Positions 46,407 through 51,831 of a stretch of 64,000 nucleotides of DNA are shown piece after piece. Below the pieces are notes generated by a model, which searched no databases, was not told the DNA's origin, and saw only the letters and a program-made list of their open reading frames with translations. The first letter of the stretch is position 1. Every line of letters begins with the position of its first letter. The position numbers and the translations under genes are program-made. Origin of the DNA: Patescibacteria group bacterium (GTDB lineage Bacteria; Patescibacteriota; Microgenomatia; UBA1400; PJMF01); assembly GCA_041747555.1 (NCBI GenBank), contig JBGTEY010000011.1, forward strand, positions 12,696 through 76,695. Direction: 5' to 3'.

Positions 46407-46904
46407 TTACTCGGATGCAGCTTTGGTTTCCTCTGCGTCTGAAGCAGTTTCACCAACTTCGTATCGCACAAATCGTGCAACTACAAATTTCTCTCCAATT
46501 TTTCCGCTGACCGTTTTCATGAATTGCTCAACGGTTTCTGATGGATTTTTGATGAAATCTTGCTCAAGCAATTCGGTGACAGATGTTGGCTTCATAGCTA
46601 CCACTTGCATGGCAATACCTTTTGCCATATCTTGAAAATCGCTGTTTCTGGCAACGTAATCAGTTTCGCAATTGATTTCGACTATAGCTGCGGTTTTGTT
46701 ATTTCCGTGGACGTAGCTTGCGATGTAGCCTTCTGAGGTTTCGCGATCAGCTTTTTTCTCTGCGCGAGCCATGCCTTTGAGCTTCACGATTTCAAGTGCT
46801 TTTTTGTAGTTACCCTTGGCTTCTTCGAGGGCTTTTTTACAGTCCATGATACCTGCGCCTGTTTCTTCACGAAGTTTTTTTACATCTGCGGGTGATATTG
46901 CCAT
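46407..46904 (-). CDS. tsf: Elongation factor Ts (short form)
   Basis: The UBA-like N-terminus ADVKKLREETGAGIMDCKKALEEAKGN is present. It sits immediately downstream of rpsB, as is canonical. Confidence 0.85.
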   Translation of the reverse strand: MAISPADVKKLREETGAGIMDCKKALEEAKGNYKKALEIVKLKGMARAEKKADRETSEGYIASYVHGNNKTAAIVEINCETDYVARNSDFQDMAKGIAMQVVAMKPTSVTELLEQDFIKNPSETVEQFMKTVSGKIGEKFVVARFVRYEVGETASDAEETKAASE

Positions 46905-47674: not shown

Positions 47675-47902
47675 GTCCTTGTTCCTCCTTTTGGAGCACG
47701 GAATTGCGGCGGTTTCGTCATAAATATCGATTTATGCGAACAGGACGTGCACTGCATCCATACATTTTTTTACTAGAAGGGGTAGTATAGCATACTTGGG
47801 GGGATGTGGGGAGTGTGTGCAGGCCAGCATTGGATATTGGAAACTTTTTTTCATCCACGCAAAATTTATGCATGAATAAACTTTCCCTATTTGACTCTAA
47901 TC

Positions 47903-48733
47903 CTACTCGCTCTGTCTCTTGGCTTTATTCATAAGTTTCATCCTCTCTTCTTCGATGTCTAAAACATGCATTCTCCGATGACAGTTGGGACATAATGCCA
48001 CTACGTTTTCCAACGTATCGGGACCACCCTCTGAAAGCCATTTAATATGATGTACTTCAAAAAATGGCTCATTGCTTTTATCAGTAAATGGCGCTTCCAG
48101 TTCGCACAAATCACAAATGCCACCTGCCCTTCTTTTTGCCAACTCCACTATATCTGAATTGCGGTCATACTGTTTGGATACTACAACTCTTACCCCGACC
48201 TTCTTTGGAGCCTTTTTAACCCGCGCCTCCAGTTCTTCAGTGGTTTTACTCCTTGATTTCTTATCTAATATTCTAGTCTTGTTATCAAACACGTCTTTAG
48301 TAATTATTGGCGTTTGTGACTGGTCCTCAAGCTTTAAGGGGAATACCCATACTTTTCGGTCTGTTCCATCTGCATCTGGCTGTACCTCTTCATGAGGGTC
48401 TTCAAACAAAACCATTTTTCCTTGGTAGGTATATTTTCCAGCTTCAAGCACCTCAAATAGGTGGACATCAATTCCGTTAGTATCTGACTCCGCAAGTGTT
48501 TTATTTTGACTGTAGTTCAAGTCTTGGTCTCCCCGCAAACCCATGCCAGTATAATGAAATACGTCATCCAGCCATCTATCTTCATAAACAGACTTTAAGT
48601 GGTCTGACACTAAAACGAGTGTATTTGTACGCAAACTACGTCTCATACCGCCCTGAGGAGCGCAAAGGAAGATTTCGCAAACTTCTTCGTTTGATAAGTT
48701 GGTTCCAGGTTTCAGACTTTCAATTTCATCCAT
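47903..48733 (-). CDS. SRA-domain + HNH nuclease, ScoMcrA/McrA-like modification-dependent (type IV) restriction endonuclease
   Basis: N-terminal LVLVSDHLKSVYEDRWLDDVFHYTGMGLRGDQD...YTYQGKMVL fits the SRA/YDG-like pattern (SGGYEDD...YTGSGGRD...YRYDGLY). C-terminal CDLC...EVHHIKWLSEGGPDTLENVVALCPNCHRRMH is an HNH beta-beta-alpha-Me fold with a Cys4 Zn site. 276 aa, similar to E. coli McrA. Confidence 0.65.
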   Translation of the reverse strand: MDEIESLKPGTNLSNEEVCEIFLCAPQGGMRRSLRTNTLVLVSDHLKSVYEDRWLDDVFHYTGMGLRGDQDLNYSQNKTLAESDTNGIDVHLFEVLEAGKYTYQGKMVLFEDPHEEVQPDADGTDRKVWVFPLKLEDQSQTPIITKDVFDNKTRILDKKSRSKTTEELEARVKKAPKKVGVRVVVSKQYDRNSDIVELAKRRAGGICDLCELEAPFTDKSNEPFFEVHHIKWLSEGGPDTLENVVALCPNCHRRMHVLDIEEERMKLMNKAKRQSE

Positions 48734-49127
48734 CGCTTTTCTCCATGAGGGTACTAATTATTGGTAAGTCAGCTTCACAGAAAGTGAAATCAGGCAATTG
48801 ATGAAGGGAAACCCATGCAATCTCTTCATGGTCATTCAGAATAAAGTCACCGGAAATGTATCGAGAGTGAAAAGCCATTAAATTTATTGTTACTTCTTTG
48901 TAACTATAAAGGCAGTTGGTAATGTGACTACCAGTCTCTGTGTTAATGCAGAACTCCTCAAGTAACTCCCTCTCTAAACACTGCTCAGGAGTTTCTCCCT
49001 CCTCAATCTTTCCTCCAGGAAACTCCCATTTTAGTTCCAAACGCGAACCTCTTTTGCGCTTGGCAATCAACACTTTTCCATCCCTCTCAATCACCGCTGC
49101 TGCTACATTTACTACCTTTTTACTCAT
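48726..49127 (-). CDS. NUDIX hydrolase (MutT-like)
   Basis: Nudix box GGKIEEGETPEQCLERELLEEFCI. Overlaps the SRA-HNH gene by 8 nt. Confidence 0.8.
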   Translation of the reverse strand: MSKKVVNVAAAVIERDGKVLIAKRKRGSRLELKWEFPGGKIEEGETPEQCLERELLEEFCINTETGSHITNCLYSYKEVTINLMAFHSRYISGDFILNDHEEIAWVSLHQLPDFTFCEADLPIISTLMEKSDG

Positions 49128-49175
49128 GATTAGTCTCGCAATAGATTAATACCTTGCATCTTGAGAGTCGTATGC

Positions 49176-51132: not shown

Positions 51133-51831
51133 ATGCAAAAAAATAACTCATCAAAACTAGAATCATTTACCGTATTTCATGCCAATTCAGAAGAATATCA
51201 TCAGCTGAAACAAGAAATTTTTACCAAAGACACCTACTATTTTGAATCCGACTCCCCTGCCCCACGAATTATTGACGCGGGCGCACACATTGGGGTTGCA
51301 ACGCTGTATTTTAAAAAATTATACCCAGAGGCAATAATTACCGCCATTGAGCCGAATCCGATTAGTTTTGAACTCTTGGAACAAAATATATTTGAAAATC
51401 AGCTCTCCTTTGTTGATGCTCATCAATGCGCGCTTGGCGAAACACAGGGAAAAACAACCTACTACCGAGACAAAACAAAAAACCAGTGGCACAGCACGGG
51501 CGGATTTATCGATGGTGCGTGGACCAATCAACAAGAATCAGAAGCATTGCCCGTCATGACCCACACCCTCGCCGAATTCATTACCGAGCCTATTGATTTT
51601 CTCAAAATGGACATCGAGGGCGCCGAGCAAGCTACACTGGCAGCGGCTGGTGACTCTCTAAGGATGGTTGGAGAGTTGATTGTCGAATTTCACCCCCACC
51701 GTACTCAATCTCTTGAGGACATGCTGAAAATTCTTGATCCTTATTATAAAACCACGCTCTACAAAGACGGCAAAGAAGTCGTCTTTACTCAGGCTCGCGG
51801 GTTGGTGCATATTCATGGGCTTGCGAAGTAA
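51133..51831 (+). CDS. FkbM-family SAM-dependent methyltransferase
   Basis: IIDAGAHIGVATLYF (SAM motif I) and LKMDIEGAE are characteristic of the Methyltransf_21/FkbM family. Confidence 0.75.
   Translation: MQKNNSSKLESFTVFHANSEEYHQLKQEIFTKDTYYFESDSPAPRIIDAGAHIGVATLYFKKLYPEAIITAIEPNPISFELLEQNIFENQLSFVDAHQCALGETQGKTTYYRDKTKNQWHSTGGFIDGAWTNQQESEALPVMTHTLAEFITEPIDFLKMDIEGAEQATLAAAGDSLRMVGELIVEFHPHRTQSLEDMLKILDPYYKTTLYKDGKEVVFTQARGLVHIHGLAK

What the first reader, a model, noticed from the sequence alone, without database searches (positions are those of the whole stretch)
47903..49127. SRA-HNH (McrA/ScoMcrA-like) type IV restriction endonuclease translationally coupled to a NUDIX hydrolase
The 276-aa protein has an N-terminal SRA/YDG-like modified-cytosine-binding pattern and a C-terminal Cys4-Zn HNH nuclease. 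This is the architecture of modification-dependent restriction enzymes that cut 5mC/5hmC or glucosylated DNA. It would be the only recognisable innate defence gene in this window.

Its 8-nt overlap with a MutT-like NUDIX gene is unusual. The NUDIX enzyme may simply be the house-cleaning 8-oxo-dGTPase. It could instead be functionally tied to the nuclease, for example by hydrolysing modified dNTPs.
Basis: partly seen in the sequence, partly recalled or inferred. Interest (0 to 1): 0.55.

Follow-up and report, generated by a model that had tools for sequence, protein, structure and literature searches.

The report
Modified-cytosine restriction nuclease with NUDIX partner
This is a two-gene defence cassette, a nuclease predicted to cut DNA carrying modified cytosines plus a small nucleotide-cleaning enzyme, and the pairing recurs across bacteria, archaea and prophages, though what the partner does has never been tested.

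Summary
Window 47903-48733 (-) encodes a 276-aa protein with an N-terminal SRA domain and a C-terminal Cys4 HNH nuclease. Window 48726-49127 (-) encodes a 133-aa NUDIX hydrolase whose stop overlaps the nuclease start by 8 nt (ATGGATGA).

The NUDIX pairing is conserved, not accidental.
- 45 of 80 species-representative genomes have a co-oriented adjacent NUDIX, in both gene orders, and one genome has a fusion.
- 23 of 40 viral or prophage contigs have it too.

Relatives of this NUDIX also sit next to SauUSI-type enzymes, a different nuclease with an SRA-like reader. The host is a Microgenomates-group (CPR) bacterium. Its relatives carry other cargo in the same folD-rpsB slot, so the cassette was acquired.

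My best mechanism is inferred, not shown. The nuclease restricts 5mC/5hmC DNA. The NudG-like NUDIX destroys modified dCTP so the host does not build targets into its own genome.

The nuclease is a known kind. The partner's role is open.

The parts
48726..49127 (-). NUDIX hydrolase gene (133 aa) of the MutT/NudG-like (d)NTP pyrophosphohydrolase clade; it matches the PADLOC candidate PDC-S07
   Evidence: PF00293 E 2e-19. PADLOC PDC-S07 E 8e-47 over the full length. TIGR00586 MutT scores 95.2 bits against a cut-off of 97.9, and PRK10546 NudG scores 95 against 156. In the PDB it is closer to E. coli NudG 2rrk (74.6 bits) than to MutT 1mut (46.8 bits).
48945..49013 (-). Nudix box, residues G39-I61 (GX5EX7REUXEEXGU, with C in place of the last G)
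   Evidence: Read from the translation. The same box is intact in 43 of 44 partner NUDIX proteins.
48768..48770 (-). Codon for Asp120, the position of NudG Asp118 and MutT Asn119 (the base-recognition position)
   Evidence: HMMER alignment to 2rrk. Column counts give Asp in 43/44 partners, 6/6 SauUSI-linked and 69/70 other relatives, and Asn in MutT.
48726..48733 (-). 8-nt overlap ATGGATGA, covering the NUDIX stop TGA and the nuclease start ATG
   Evidence: Sequence read. Short overlaps are the commonest junction in 47 related pairs, although the start codons there are approximate.
48741..48744 (-). GGAG ribosome-binding-like motif 7 nt upstream of the nuclease ATG, inside the end of the NUDIX gene
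   Evidence: Sequence read. Function is inferred.
47903..48733 (-). SRA-HNH type IV restriction endonuclease gene (276 aa)
   Evidence: phrog_15103 matches over the full length at E 2e-86.
48320..48733 (-). SRA domain (residues 1-138), the predicted reader that flips out a modified cytosine; candidate pocket residues Y50, D52, Y61, T62
48125..48298 (-). Helical linker (residues 146-203) between reader and nuclease
   Evidence: Secondary structure of the AlphaFold model, helices 146-161, 165-173 and 193-203.
47960..48124 (-). HNH nuclease core (beta-beta-alpha-metal fold) with a Cys4 zinc site (residues 204-258): C207, C210, H228, H229, N243, C248, C251, H252, H256
   Evidence: PF01844 E 2.9e-11. 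The family profile matches the EcoKMcrA HNH at E 2.6e-26. All listed residues are invariant in 39 homologs.

Best explanation
This is an acquired two-gene type IV (modification-dependent) restriction cassette.

The 276-aa protein uses its N-terminal SRA domain to flip a modified cytosine (5mC and/or 5hmC) out of incoming DNA into a Tyr/Asp/Tyr pocket. Its C-terminal zinc-stabilised HNH domain then cuts nearby, probably as a dimer as in TagI and EcoKMcrA. This restricts phages and plasmids whose DNA carries modified cytosines. No methyltransferase is needed.

The upstream, overlapping NUDIX gene encodes a catalytically competent NudG-like (d)NTP pyrophosphohydrolase. I propose that it hydrolyses modified dCTP (5-methyl-dCTP, 5-hydroxymethyl-dCTP). 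These nucleotides could come from breakdown of restricted modified DNA or from a phage's own synthesis. Removing them would keep modified cytosine out of the host chromosome, where it would become a target for the host's own nuclease. It might also starve phages that need hm-dCTP.

Shown here:
- the domain architecture, conserved active-site residues and conserved reader-pocket residues;
- the conserved, order-independent adjacency of the two genes and one fusion;
- linkage of the same NUDIX clade to a second, unrelated nuclease with an SRA-like reader (SauUSI type);
- the accessory status of the cassette in this lineage.

Inferred:
- modification-dependent cleavage by this particular subfamily;
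- the substrate of the NUDIX enzyme and its self-protection role;
- translational coupling.
For: Architecture.
- Foldseek on the full model matches ScoMcrA at E 5e-13 and TagI at E 3e-9.
- PF26348 SRA_ScoMcrA plus HNH is recorded on the closest homolog.
- Y50, D52, Y61, T62 and the HNH/Cys4 set are invariant. They parallel TagI Tyr55/Asp58/Tyr67/Thr68, which that paper describes as the flipped-base pocket (PMC6212794).

Linkage.
- 45 of 80 genome loci have a co-oriented adjacent NUDIX: 30 upstream and 15 downstream.
- Marinospirillum celere has a 406-aa NUDIX-SRA-HNH fusion.
- 23 of 40 close viral-contig members have NUDIX upstream.
- Pairwise identities of the two proteins correlate (r 0.755; 0 of 2000 permutations reach it).
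- The Nudix box is intact in 43 of 44 partners.
- The 33 unpaired loci show no alternative conserved partner.

- Among neighbours of 80 metagenomic NUDIX relatives, the most frequent families form the SauUSI architecture (PLDc_2 + ResIII/Helicase_C + DUF3427). Pfam counts 7 such neighbours and 6 were verified individually. Another 4 are SRA-HNH.
- Xu et al. 2011 noted a conserved MutT/NUDIX gene beside SauUSI in at least 60 genomes and left its function open (PMC3141236).

Substrate plausibility.
- The NUDIX is closer to E. coli NudG than to MutT.
- It has Asp where NudG has Asp118 and MutT has Asn119.
- NudG hydrolyses 5-methyl-dCTP with kcat/Km of 3e5 M-1 s-1 (PMC3744803).
- 5m-dCTP and 5hm-dCTP are incorporated as well as dCTP, and their likely source is degraded methylated DNA (PMC10742078).

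Acquired status.
- Two Microgenomates/Patescibacteria relatives keep the folD...rpsB-tsf synteny but hold different genes in the slot.
- The closest homologous pair sits in a defence island with GmrSD and a MazG-like gene.
Against: - No biochemical data exist for this subfamily or for any partner NUDIX. Everything on substrate and role is inference.
- About 40% of family members lack the NUDIX partner, so it is not obligatory.
- Only about 5% of close NUDIX relatives sit next to SRA-HNH, and several lie in housekeeping contexts, for example beside UDG. The clade is therefore generic.
- The NudG-type Asp is shared by unpaired relatives too, so it does not discriminate partners from non-partners.
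- NudG Arg72 and Arg77 are not conserved here. That these residues matter for NudG substrate recognition is recalled from memory, not taken from a paper read here.
- The one fusion protein has a degenerate Nudix box (RHVKEK), which fits a binding or regulatory role better than catalysis.
- In a small CPR genome the enzyme could double as the general dNTP sanitiser.
- Only 64 kb of the genome was available, so a cytosine methyltransferase elsewhere cannot be excluded.
Confidence: 0.6

Rival explanations
1. The NUDIX enzyme is itself an anti-phage effector. It depletes canonical or phage-specific nucleotides (for example dCTP or hm-dCTP) during infection and acts in parallel with the nuclease rather than protecting the host from it.
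For: PADLOC lists this family as a stand-alone candidate, PDC-S07. Relatives occur next to other defence-type genes without SRA-HNH: an SLFN-group-3 helicase in L086, and a MazG-like gene in the L081 island. Defence by nucleotide depletion is established for dCTP deaminase and dGTPase systems (from memory).
Against: A general nucleotide-depletion effector would not be expected to pair specifically with enzymes that carry SRA-like readers, in two different nuclease architectures. Many close relatives sit in plainly housekeeping contexts. No regulatory or sensor domain is present in a 133-aa protein, so uncontrolled dNTP depletion would harm the host.
Confidence: 0.2
2. The NUDIX gene is just the housekeeping MutT-type 8-oxo-dGTPase of this small genome, and its position beside the nuclease has no functional meaning.
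For: TIGR00586 MutT scores 95.2 bits, just under its cut-off of 97.9. JGI annotates relatives as 8-oxo-dGTP diphosphatase. The neighbours in the window are housekeeping genes. Some relatives lie next to DNA repair genes such as UDG and HhH-GPD.
Against: The adjacency is conserved in 45 of 80 genomes across bacteria and archaea, in both orders, with one fusion, and in 23 of 40 viral contigs. My own rough estimate of the chance expectation is well under 1%, given a few such NUDIX genes per genome. The closest relatives of this organism lack both genes at this slot. The closest NUDIX homolog (71% identity) is again paired with the closest nuclease homolog (60%), with the same 8-nt overlap. MutT Asn119 is replaced by Asp.
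Confidence: 0.07
3. The NUDIX protein regulates the nuclease by direct contact, as an antitoxin-like inhibitor or a nucleotide-sensing subunit, rather than by acting on the nucleotide pool.
For: Overlapping genes favour equal-dose co-production. A natural NUDIX-SRA-HNH fusion exists, and its Nudix box has lost two catalytic glutamates, which suggests that a non-catalytic role can suffice.
Against: The catalytic box is strictly kept in 43 of 44 unfused partners. About 40% of nucleases occur without the partner, which is hard to square with an essential inhibitor. The same NUDIX clade pairs with the structurally unrelated SauUSI-type nuclease, so a conserved protein interface is unlikely unless it lies on the reader domain.
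Confidence: 0.1

Closest known systems
ScoMcrA (Streptomyces coelicolor Sco4631; PDB 5zmm/5zmn), an SBD-SRA-HNH type IV enzyme
   Different: ScoMcrA is 561 aa, with an N-terminal head and a sulfur-binding domain that reads phosphorothioate DNA. The window protein is 276 aa and has neither. Sequence identity is about 18-20%. No NUDIX partner is reported for ScoMcrA in the papers read.
TagI / ScoA3IV (Sco5333) / TbiR51I group of SRA-HNH endonucleases
   Different: They are separate sequence families. A profile of this family reaches TagI only through the HNH domain (E 6e-4) and not through the SRA domain. TagI has a CxxD variant at the second zinc motif, whereas this family has CxxC. The carboxylate is one residue closer to the first tyrosine here. 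The neighbourhood survey in PMC6765204, as read here, covers methyltransferases and never mentions NUDIX or MutT.
EcoKMcrA (E. coli McrA; PDB 6ghc)
   Same: It is the closest HNH domain by sequence (profile E 2.6e-26 over residues 176-263). It is also a 5mC/5hmC-dependent enzyme without a methyltransferase.
   Different: The EcoKMcrA reader is the unrelated NEco domain, not an SRA domain (PMC7461809). The match covers only the C-terminal third.
SauUSI (Staphylococcus aureus; PDB 7clg) with its linked MutT/NUDIX gene SAUSA300_2432
   Different: The nuclease (PLD) and motor (an ATP-dependent helicase) are entirely different, and the protein is about 950 aa. I could not compare the S. aureus NUDIX sequence itself.
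E. coli NudG (Orf135; PDB 2rrk) and MutT (PDB 1mut)
   Same: The size is the same (about 130 aa), the Nudix box is intact and the enzyme belongs to the same (d)NTP pyrophosphohydrolase clade. The window protein shares NudG Asp118 (as Asp120). NudG prefers 5-methyl-dCTP, CTP and dCTP (PMC3744803).
   Different: It scores below the NCBIfam cut-offs for both (95 against 156 for NudG; 95.2 against 97.9 for MutT). NudG Arg72/Arg77 and MutT Asn119 are not conserved. Neither E. coli gene is known to be linked to a restriction enzyme.
PADLOC candidate PDC-S07
   Same: The window NUDIX matches this model over its full length at E 8e-47.
   Different: PDC-S07 is a single-gene candidate with no assigned function and no named partner. 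The papers found only list its occurrence.

Membership tests
SRA-HNH type IV modification-dependent restriction endonucleases | N-terminal SRA (PUA-superfamily) fold | tested here: met
SRA-HNH type IV modification-dependent restriction endonucleases | Flipped-base pocket: two aromatic walls plus a carboxylate that reads the cytosine edge | tested here: met
   Y50, D52, Y61 and T62 are invariant in 39 homologs. HMMER aligns YEDRW...HYTGMGLRGDQ with ScoMcrA YADGR...AYVGDGLSGDQ. They parallel the TagI pocket residues. The test is by motif only; atomic superposition was not possible.
SRA-HNH type IV modification-dependent restriction endonucleases | C-terminal HNH (beta-beta-alpha-metal) nuclease with a zinc-binding Cys4 site and catalytic His/Asn/His | tested here: met
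   PF01844 E 2.9e-11. C207, C210, C248, C251, H229, N243 and H252 are invariant.
SRA-HNH type IV modification-dependent restriction endonucleases | No cognate cytosine-5 methyltransferase | tested here: inconclusive
   None was found in the 64-kb window: no PADLOC methyltransferase hit among 58 ORFs and no PCQ-type motif. The nearby FkbM-family methyltransferase is not a DNA m5C enzyme. The rest of the genome was not available.
SRA-HNH type IV modification-dependent restriction endonucleases | Cleavage that depends on 5mC/5hmC in the substrate | not testable with these tools
   This needs enzyme assays or phage restriction assays. I found no characterised member of this sequence subfamily.
ScoMcrA proper (SBD-SRA-HNH) | Head domain and sulfur-binding domain N-terminal to the SRA domain | tested here: not met
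   The SRA domain starts at about residue 10 of a 276-aa protein. ScoMcrA aligns only from about residue 300 onward.
EcoKMcrA | NEco N-terminal 5hmC/5mC-binding domain | tested here: not met
   The match to 6ghc covers only residues 176-265, the HNH domain. The N-domain has an SRA fold.
MutT 8-oxo-dGTP diphosphatase (TIGR00586) | Score above the curated cut-off | tested here: not met
   95.2 bits against a cut-off of 97.9.
MutT 8-oxo-dGTP diphosphatase (TIGR00586) | Asn119, which reads 8-oxoguanine (role recalled from memory) | tested here: not met
   Asp120 occupies this column.
NudG pyrimidine (d)NTP diphosphatase (PRK10546) | Score above the curated cut-off | tested here: not met
   95 bits against a cut-off of 156.
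NudG pyrimidine (d)NTP diphosphatase (PRK10546) | Asp118 at the base-recognition position | tested here: met
   Asp120 aligns with 2rrk chain residue 123, which is native Asp118. The Asp is kept in 43 of 44 partners.
NudG pyrimidine (d)NTP diphosphatase (PRK10546) | Arg72 and Arg77 (substrate-recognition role recalled from memory) | tested here: not met
   These columns hold Tyr/His and Gly/Phe/Val in the partners.
NUDIX superfamily, catalytically active | Nudix box GX5EX7REUXEEXGU with the REUXEE glutamates | tested here: met
   Residues 39-61 read GKIEEGETPEQCLERELLEEFCI. Only the last Gly is replaced.
PADLOC PDC-S07 (defence candidate) | Full-length match to the model | tested here: met
   E 8e-47, 156 bits, residues 3-130 on model positions 4-131 of 135.

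The most novel reading that the evidence does not exclude
NUDIX partners of type IV restriction enzymes that carry SRA-type readers (both SRA-HNH and SauUSI-like) are a general 'nucleotide-pool immunity' component. By destroying 5m-dCTP and 5hm-dCTP they stop modified cytosines, salvaged from degraded invader DNA or made by the phage, from being built into the host chromosome. That would make a methyltransferase-free, modification-dependent nuclease safe to carry, and would at the same time deprive hmC phages of their precursor. It would be a self/non-self safeguard that acts on the dNTP pool rather than on the DNA.
Probability: 0.4. Interest if true: 0.7.

Novelty: new variant of a known kind. 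Interest (0 to 1): 0.5.

Why it matters
Type IV restriction enzymes are usually treated as single-protein systems that need no protective partner, because the host simply lacks the modification. A catalytically intact NUDIX hydrolase is conserved beside two unrelated nuclease families that share only the modified-cytosine reader. This suggests that such systems do carry a self-protection problem, namely modified nucleotides re-entering host DNA through the dNTP pool, and have a dedicated solution to it.

If that is confirmed, it would:
- explain a gene linkage noted but left unexplained since 2011;
- give a function to the PADLOC candidate PDC-S07;
- identify enzymes selective for 5m-dCTP or 5hm-dCTP that could be useful for measuring or cleaning nucleotide pools.

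For this genome, it shows a compact acquired defence cassette lodged among translation and folate genes of a small CPR bacterium.

Tried and rejected
- The direct Pfam test for SRA failed because the local Pfam copy lacks PF26348. Only HNH models hit. I resolved this through the precomputed annotation and the structure.
- Sequence profiles of the whole family and of the N-domain alone against PDB sequences do not reach any SRA structure. Only fold comparison does.
- I tested whether longer homologs (338-470 aa) are NUDIX fusions. They are not; their N-terminal extensions have no match in the local Pfam copy. The Tepidibacter plasmid variant also has no NUDIX similarity. Only L059 is a true fusion.
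- I looked for an alternative conserved partner in the 33 genome loci without NUDIX. None exists; the neighbours are heterogeneous (integrases, reverse transcriptases, other restriction genes).
- I looked for promoter, terminator or flanking repeats that would mark an insertion. Nothing exceeded chance. GC content is only slightly lower than the window's (41.5% against 43.9%).
- An exact look-up of the window proteins gave no contig record and no names. I inferred the taxon from ribosomal protein S2 instead.
- Literature searches combining SRA-HNH, McrA or modification-dependent restriction with Nudix found nothing except the SauUSI remark.
- The supplement of Lutz et al. 2019 is not held. I therefore could not test whether their Vibrio enzymes (VcaCI, Vsi48I, Vvu009I) belong to this subfamily.
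- I rejected a homing-endonuclease reading of the HNH domain, because of the SRA reader and the absence of any interrupted host gene.
Full report
**1. What is in the sequence**

On the minus strand, window 48726-49127 encodes a 133-aa protein and 47903-48733 encodes a 276-aa protein. The upstream frame ends AGC GAT GGA TGA and the downstream frame begins ATG GAT GAA. The two genes therefore share ATGGATGA, an 8-nt overlap, and a GGAG lies 7 nt before the ATG. This arrangement is compatible with translational coupling, which I infer rather than show.

The surrounding genes all look like housekeeping genes:
- TGT, a short EF-Ts and ribosomal protein S2 lie downstream.
- FolD, an endonuclease-IV-like AP endonuclease, an FkbM-family methyltransferase and SHMT lie upstream.

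Nothing above chance was found for promoters, terminators or flanking repeats around the pair.

**2. The 276-aa protein is an SRA-HNH nuclease**

The C-terminal third is a clear HNH domain. Pfam PF01844 hits at E 2.9e-11. By sequence it is closest to the HNH of E. coli McrA (E 8e-16 for the single sequence, 2.6e-26 for the family profile). In an alignment of 39 homologs the residues C207, C210, C248 and C251 (a Cys4 zinc site) and H228, H229, N243, H252 and H256 are invariant.

The N-terminal 140 residues gave no hit in the local Pfam copy. The database protein identical to this one carries precomputed PF26348. That accession is named SRA_ScoMcrA on the 60%-identical homolog.

An AlphaFold model of the full protein (pLDDT 92.3) matches ScoMcrA (Foldseek E 5e-13), TagI (3e-9), plant SUVH5 and mammalian UHRF1 SRA domains, and MspJI.

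The invariant Y50, D52, Y61 and T62 occupy the motif (YEDRW...HYTGMG) that HMMER aligns with ScoMcrA YADGR...AYVGDG. They correspond to the two tyrosine walls, the carboxylate and the threonine described for the TagI pocket (PMC6212794).

The protein lacks the N-terminal domain of EcoKMcrA, and it lacks the head and sulfur-binding domains of ScoMcrA.

**3. The family**

The database search returned 3,899 proteins at E <= 0.001, although part of these match only through the HNH domain. The 120 best are full-length proteins of about 270-290 aa at 51-60% identity, from very different bacteria and archaea. Named or identified hosts include Desulfotomaculum, Paenibacillus, Halomonas, Moorella, Pseudomonas, Acinetobacter, Vibrio, Saccharibacteria, Thermoplasmatota, Methanoregula and Bathyarchaeota.

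Members also occur on plasmids and in viral or prophage contigs. The family corresponds to phrog_15103, which has no assigned function. A patchy distribution of this kind is typical of mobile defence genes. I found no biochemically characterised member of this sequence subfamily.

**4. The NUDIX pairing is conserved**

Evidence from the genome collection:
- I searched 80 loci, one per species, that hold a homolog of the nuclease, using the window NUDIX protein as query. A co-oriented homolog lies directly beside the nuclease gene in 45 of them: 30 upstream and 15 downstream.
- In Marinospirillum celere the two are fused in a single 406-aa ORF.
- The junctions are mostly short overlaps of 4 to 17 nt. 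My start-codon calls there are approximate.

Evidence from other collections and analyses:
- In an independent collection of viral contigs, 23 of 40 close full-length family members have the NUDIX gene upstream.
- The closest pair to the window (71% and 60% identity) has the same 8-nt overlap. It lies in a defence island with GmrSD, a MazG-like gene and an SLFN-type helicase.
- Pairwise identities of the two proteins are correlated (r 0.755; none of 2000 permutations reaches it). Shared host ancestry contributes to this value.
- The state of each locus (N-H order, H-N order, or solo) is clustered on the nuclease similarity tree but interspersed. The nearest neighbour has the same state in 52 of 79 cases, against 27 expected. 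This indicates repeated loss or rearrangement.
- The 33 loci without NUDIX have no other recurrent neighbour.
- The Nudix box is intact in 43 of 44 partners. The exception is the fusion protein, where REUXEE has become RHVKEK.

**5.

The association is asymmetric. Of 80 metagenomic relatives of the NUDIX protein, only 4 lie next to an SRA-HNH gene.

A Pfam scan of all their immediate neighbours shows which families recur most often: Helicase_C, DUF3427, ResIII, PLDc_2 and the NgoFVII-type PLD domain. Together these make up the SauUSI architecture. Pfam counts 7 neighbours with DUF3427. Six of them, each 896-1,071 aa, were confirmed individually to have PLD + helicase + DUF3427, on either side of the NUDIX gene.

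Full-text searches found no paper that connects NUDIX with SRA-HNH enzymes. The large neighbourhood survey of PUA-domain nucleases, in the passages read here, covers methyltransferases only and never mentions NUDIX or MutT (PMC6765204). PADLOC carries the NUDIX family as the untested single-gene candidate PDC-S07 (E 8e-47).

**6. What the NUDIX enzyme may do**

It belongs to the MutT/NudG group of small (d)NTP pyrophosphohydrolases, but it falls below the curated cut-offs of both.

Features pointing towards NudG:
- Among solved structures it scores higher against E. coli NudG (2rrk, 74.6 bits) than against MutT (1mut, 46.8 bits).
- At the position where MutT has Asn119, it has Asp120, like NudG Asp118. 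That Asn119 reads 8-oxoguanine is recalled from memory.

Limits of that argument:
- This Asp is nearly universal in the whole clade, paired or not. It argues against a classical MutT specificity but does not single out the partners.
- NudG Arg72 and Arg77 are not conserved.

Supporting biochemistry from the literature:
- NudG hydrolyses 5-methyl-dCTP efficiently (kcat/Km of 3e5 M-1 s-1; PMC3744803).
- Polymerases incorporate 5m-dCTP and 5hm-dCTP as readily as dCTP. Degraded methylated DNA is considered the main cellular source of 5m-dCTP (PMC10742078).

Putting these together, the most economical hypothesis is that the partner removes modified dCTP. A cell armed with a nuclease that reads modified cytosine would then not write that mark into its own chromosome. 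A secondary benefit would be depriving hmC phages of their precursor. This step is inference.

The rivals, scored in the rivals section, are an independent nucleotide-depletion effector, a regulatory subunit, and a mere housekeeping MutT. The last is contradicted by the comparative data.

**7. Host and status of the cassette**

Ribosomal protein S2 of the window is 87% identical to that of a 'Microgenomates group bacterium' MAG. The other best named hits are Patescibacteria, so the window comes from a CPR bacterium.

Two relatives keep the flanking synteny but hold different genes in the slot:
- That closest relative has FolD, then an acetyltransferase and a small ORF, then S2, EF-Ts and TGT.
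- A more distant relative has SHMT, the AP endonuclease and FolD, then two unknown ORFs, then S2 and EF-Ts.

Neither relative shows any similarity to the two cassette genes. The folD-rpsB gap is thus a variable slot, and the NUDIX-nuclease pair was acquired as a unit.

No other NUDIX gene and no cytosine-5 methyltransferase were found in the 64-kb window. The rest of the genome was not available.

**8. Verdict**

The nuclease is a new member of a known kind, the SRA-HNH type IV enzymes, in a subfamily that is abundant but uncharacterised.

The more interesting result is that the NUDIX partner is a conserved module component, and that it is shared with SauUSI-type enzymes. The linkage has been noted once in passing and catalogued as a candidate, but never explained. 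That justifies 'new variant of a known kind' and a moderate interest score. The locus in this window is an ordinary representative of that module.

Noticed in passing
L059:5614-6834 (+), Marinospirillum celere DSM 18438: A natural 406-aa NUDIX-SRA-HNH fusion. Its Nudix box has degenerated (RHVKEK in place of REUXEE), so the fused NUDIX domain may bind nucleotides without hydrolysing them.
   Followed up: partly
L081:1-8408 (JGI contig Ga0645783_04088): The closest homologous NUDIX/SRA-HNH pair lies in a defence island: GmrSD_N, a SACS/NOV_C protein, then the pair, then a MazG-like NTP pyrophosphohydrolase, an SLFN-group-3 helicase and an N6/N4 DNA methylase. The cassette is thus flanked by a second nucleotide pyrophosphohydrolase of a different fold.
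   Followed up: no
L178, L184, L187, L217, L228, L236 (metagenome loci): SauUSI-architecture genes (PLDc_2 + ResIII/Helicase_C + DUF3427; 896-1,071 aa) lie directly beside relatives of the window NUDIX, on either side of it.
   Followed up: partly
window 47675-47902 and 49128-49175; L168:604-1743; L169:4953-6000: The gap between folD and rpsB is a variable slot in Microgenomates/Patescibacteria relatives. One relative holds an acetyltransferase plus an 82-aa ORF, another holds two unknown ORFs (153 and 117 aa), and the window holds the defence cassette.
   Followed up: partly
P0021, P0036, P0059, P0079, P0035, P0015 (homologs); L085:3575-4837 (Tepidibacter plasmid): Longer family members (338-470 aa) carry N-terminal extensions of about 60-190 aa with no hit in the local Pfam copy and no NUDIX similarity. 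P0074 and P0110 carry precomputed PF26345, whose name was not available here. P0059 gives a weak DUF3427 hit within its SRA region.
   Followed up: partly
L131-L166 (IMG/VR contigs); phage records PQ189285.1, PQ189364.1 and MN988468.1: A second, distant group of phage-borne relatives (about 30-35% identity, matching residues 27/50-256) occurs in Vibrio cyclitrophicus phages and a Rhizobium phage. Most are annotated as hypothetical, and only one of them has an adjacent NUDIX.
   Followed up: no
window, two of the 58 ORFs (not identified): Two window ORFs weakly match the PADLOC model mad8 (best E 2.4e-6). I did not determine which ORFs these are or whether the hits mean anything.
   Followed up: no
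window 46407-46904 (-): The EF-Ts gene is short (165 aa; the Pfam EF_TS match covers only part of the model). The relatives have 152-160 aa, so this appears to be a lineage trait of these small genomes.
   Followed up: no
window 51133-51831 (+): An FkbM-family methyltransferase (PF05050, E 1e-17) is the only plus-strand gene in a run of minus-strand housekeeping genes. The relative L169 has SHMT directly followed by the AP endonuclease, with no such gene, so this too may be an insertion.
   Followed up: no
L083:4001-4941 (Candidatus Yanofskybacteria MAG): In another CPR genome a 53%-identical NUDIX overlaps a uracil-DNA glycosylase gene by 4 nt. The same NUDIX clade is therefore also coupled to DNA repair genes.
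   Followed up: no
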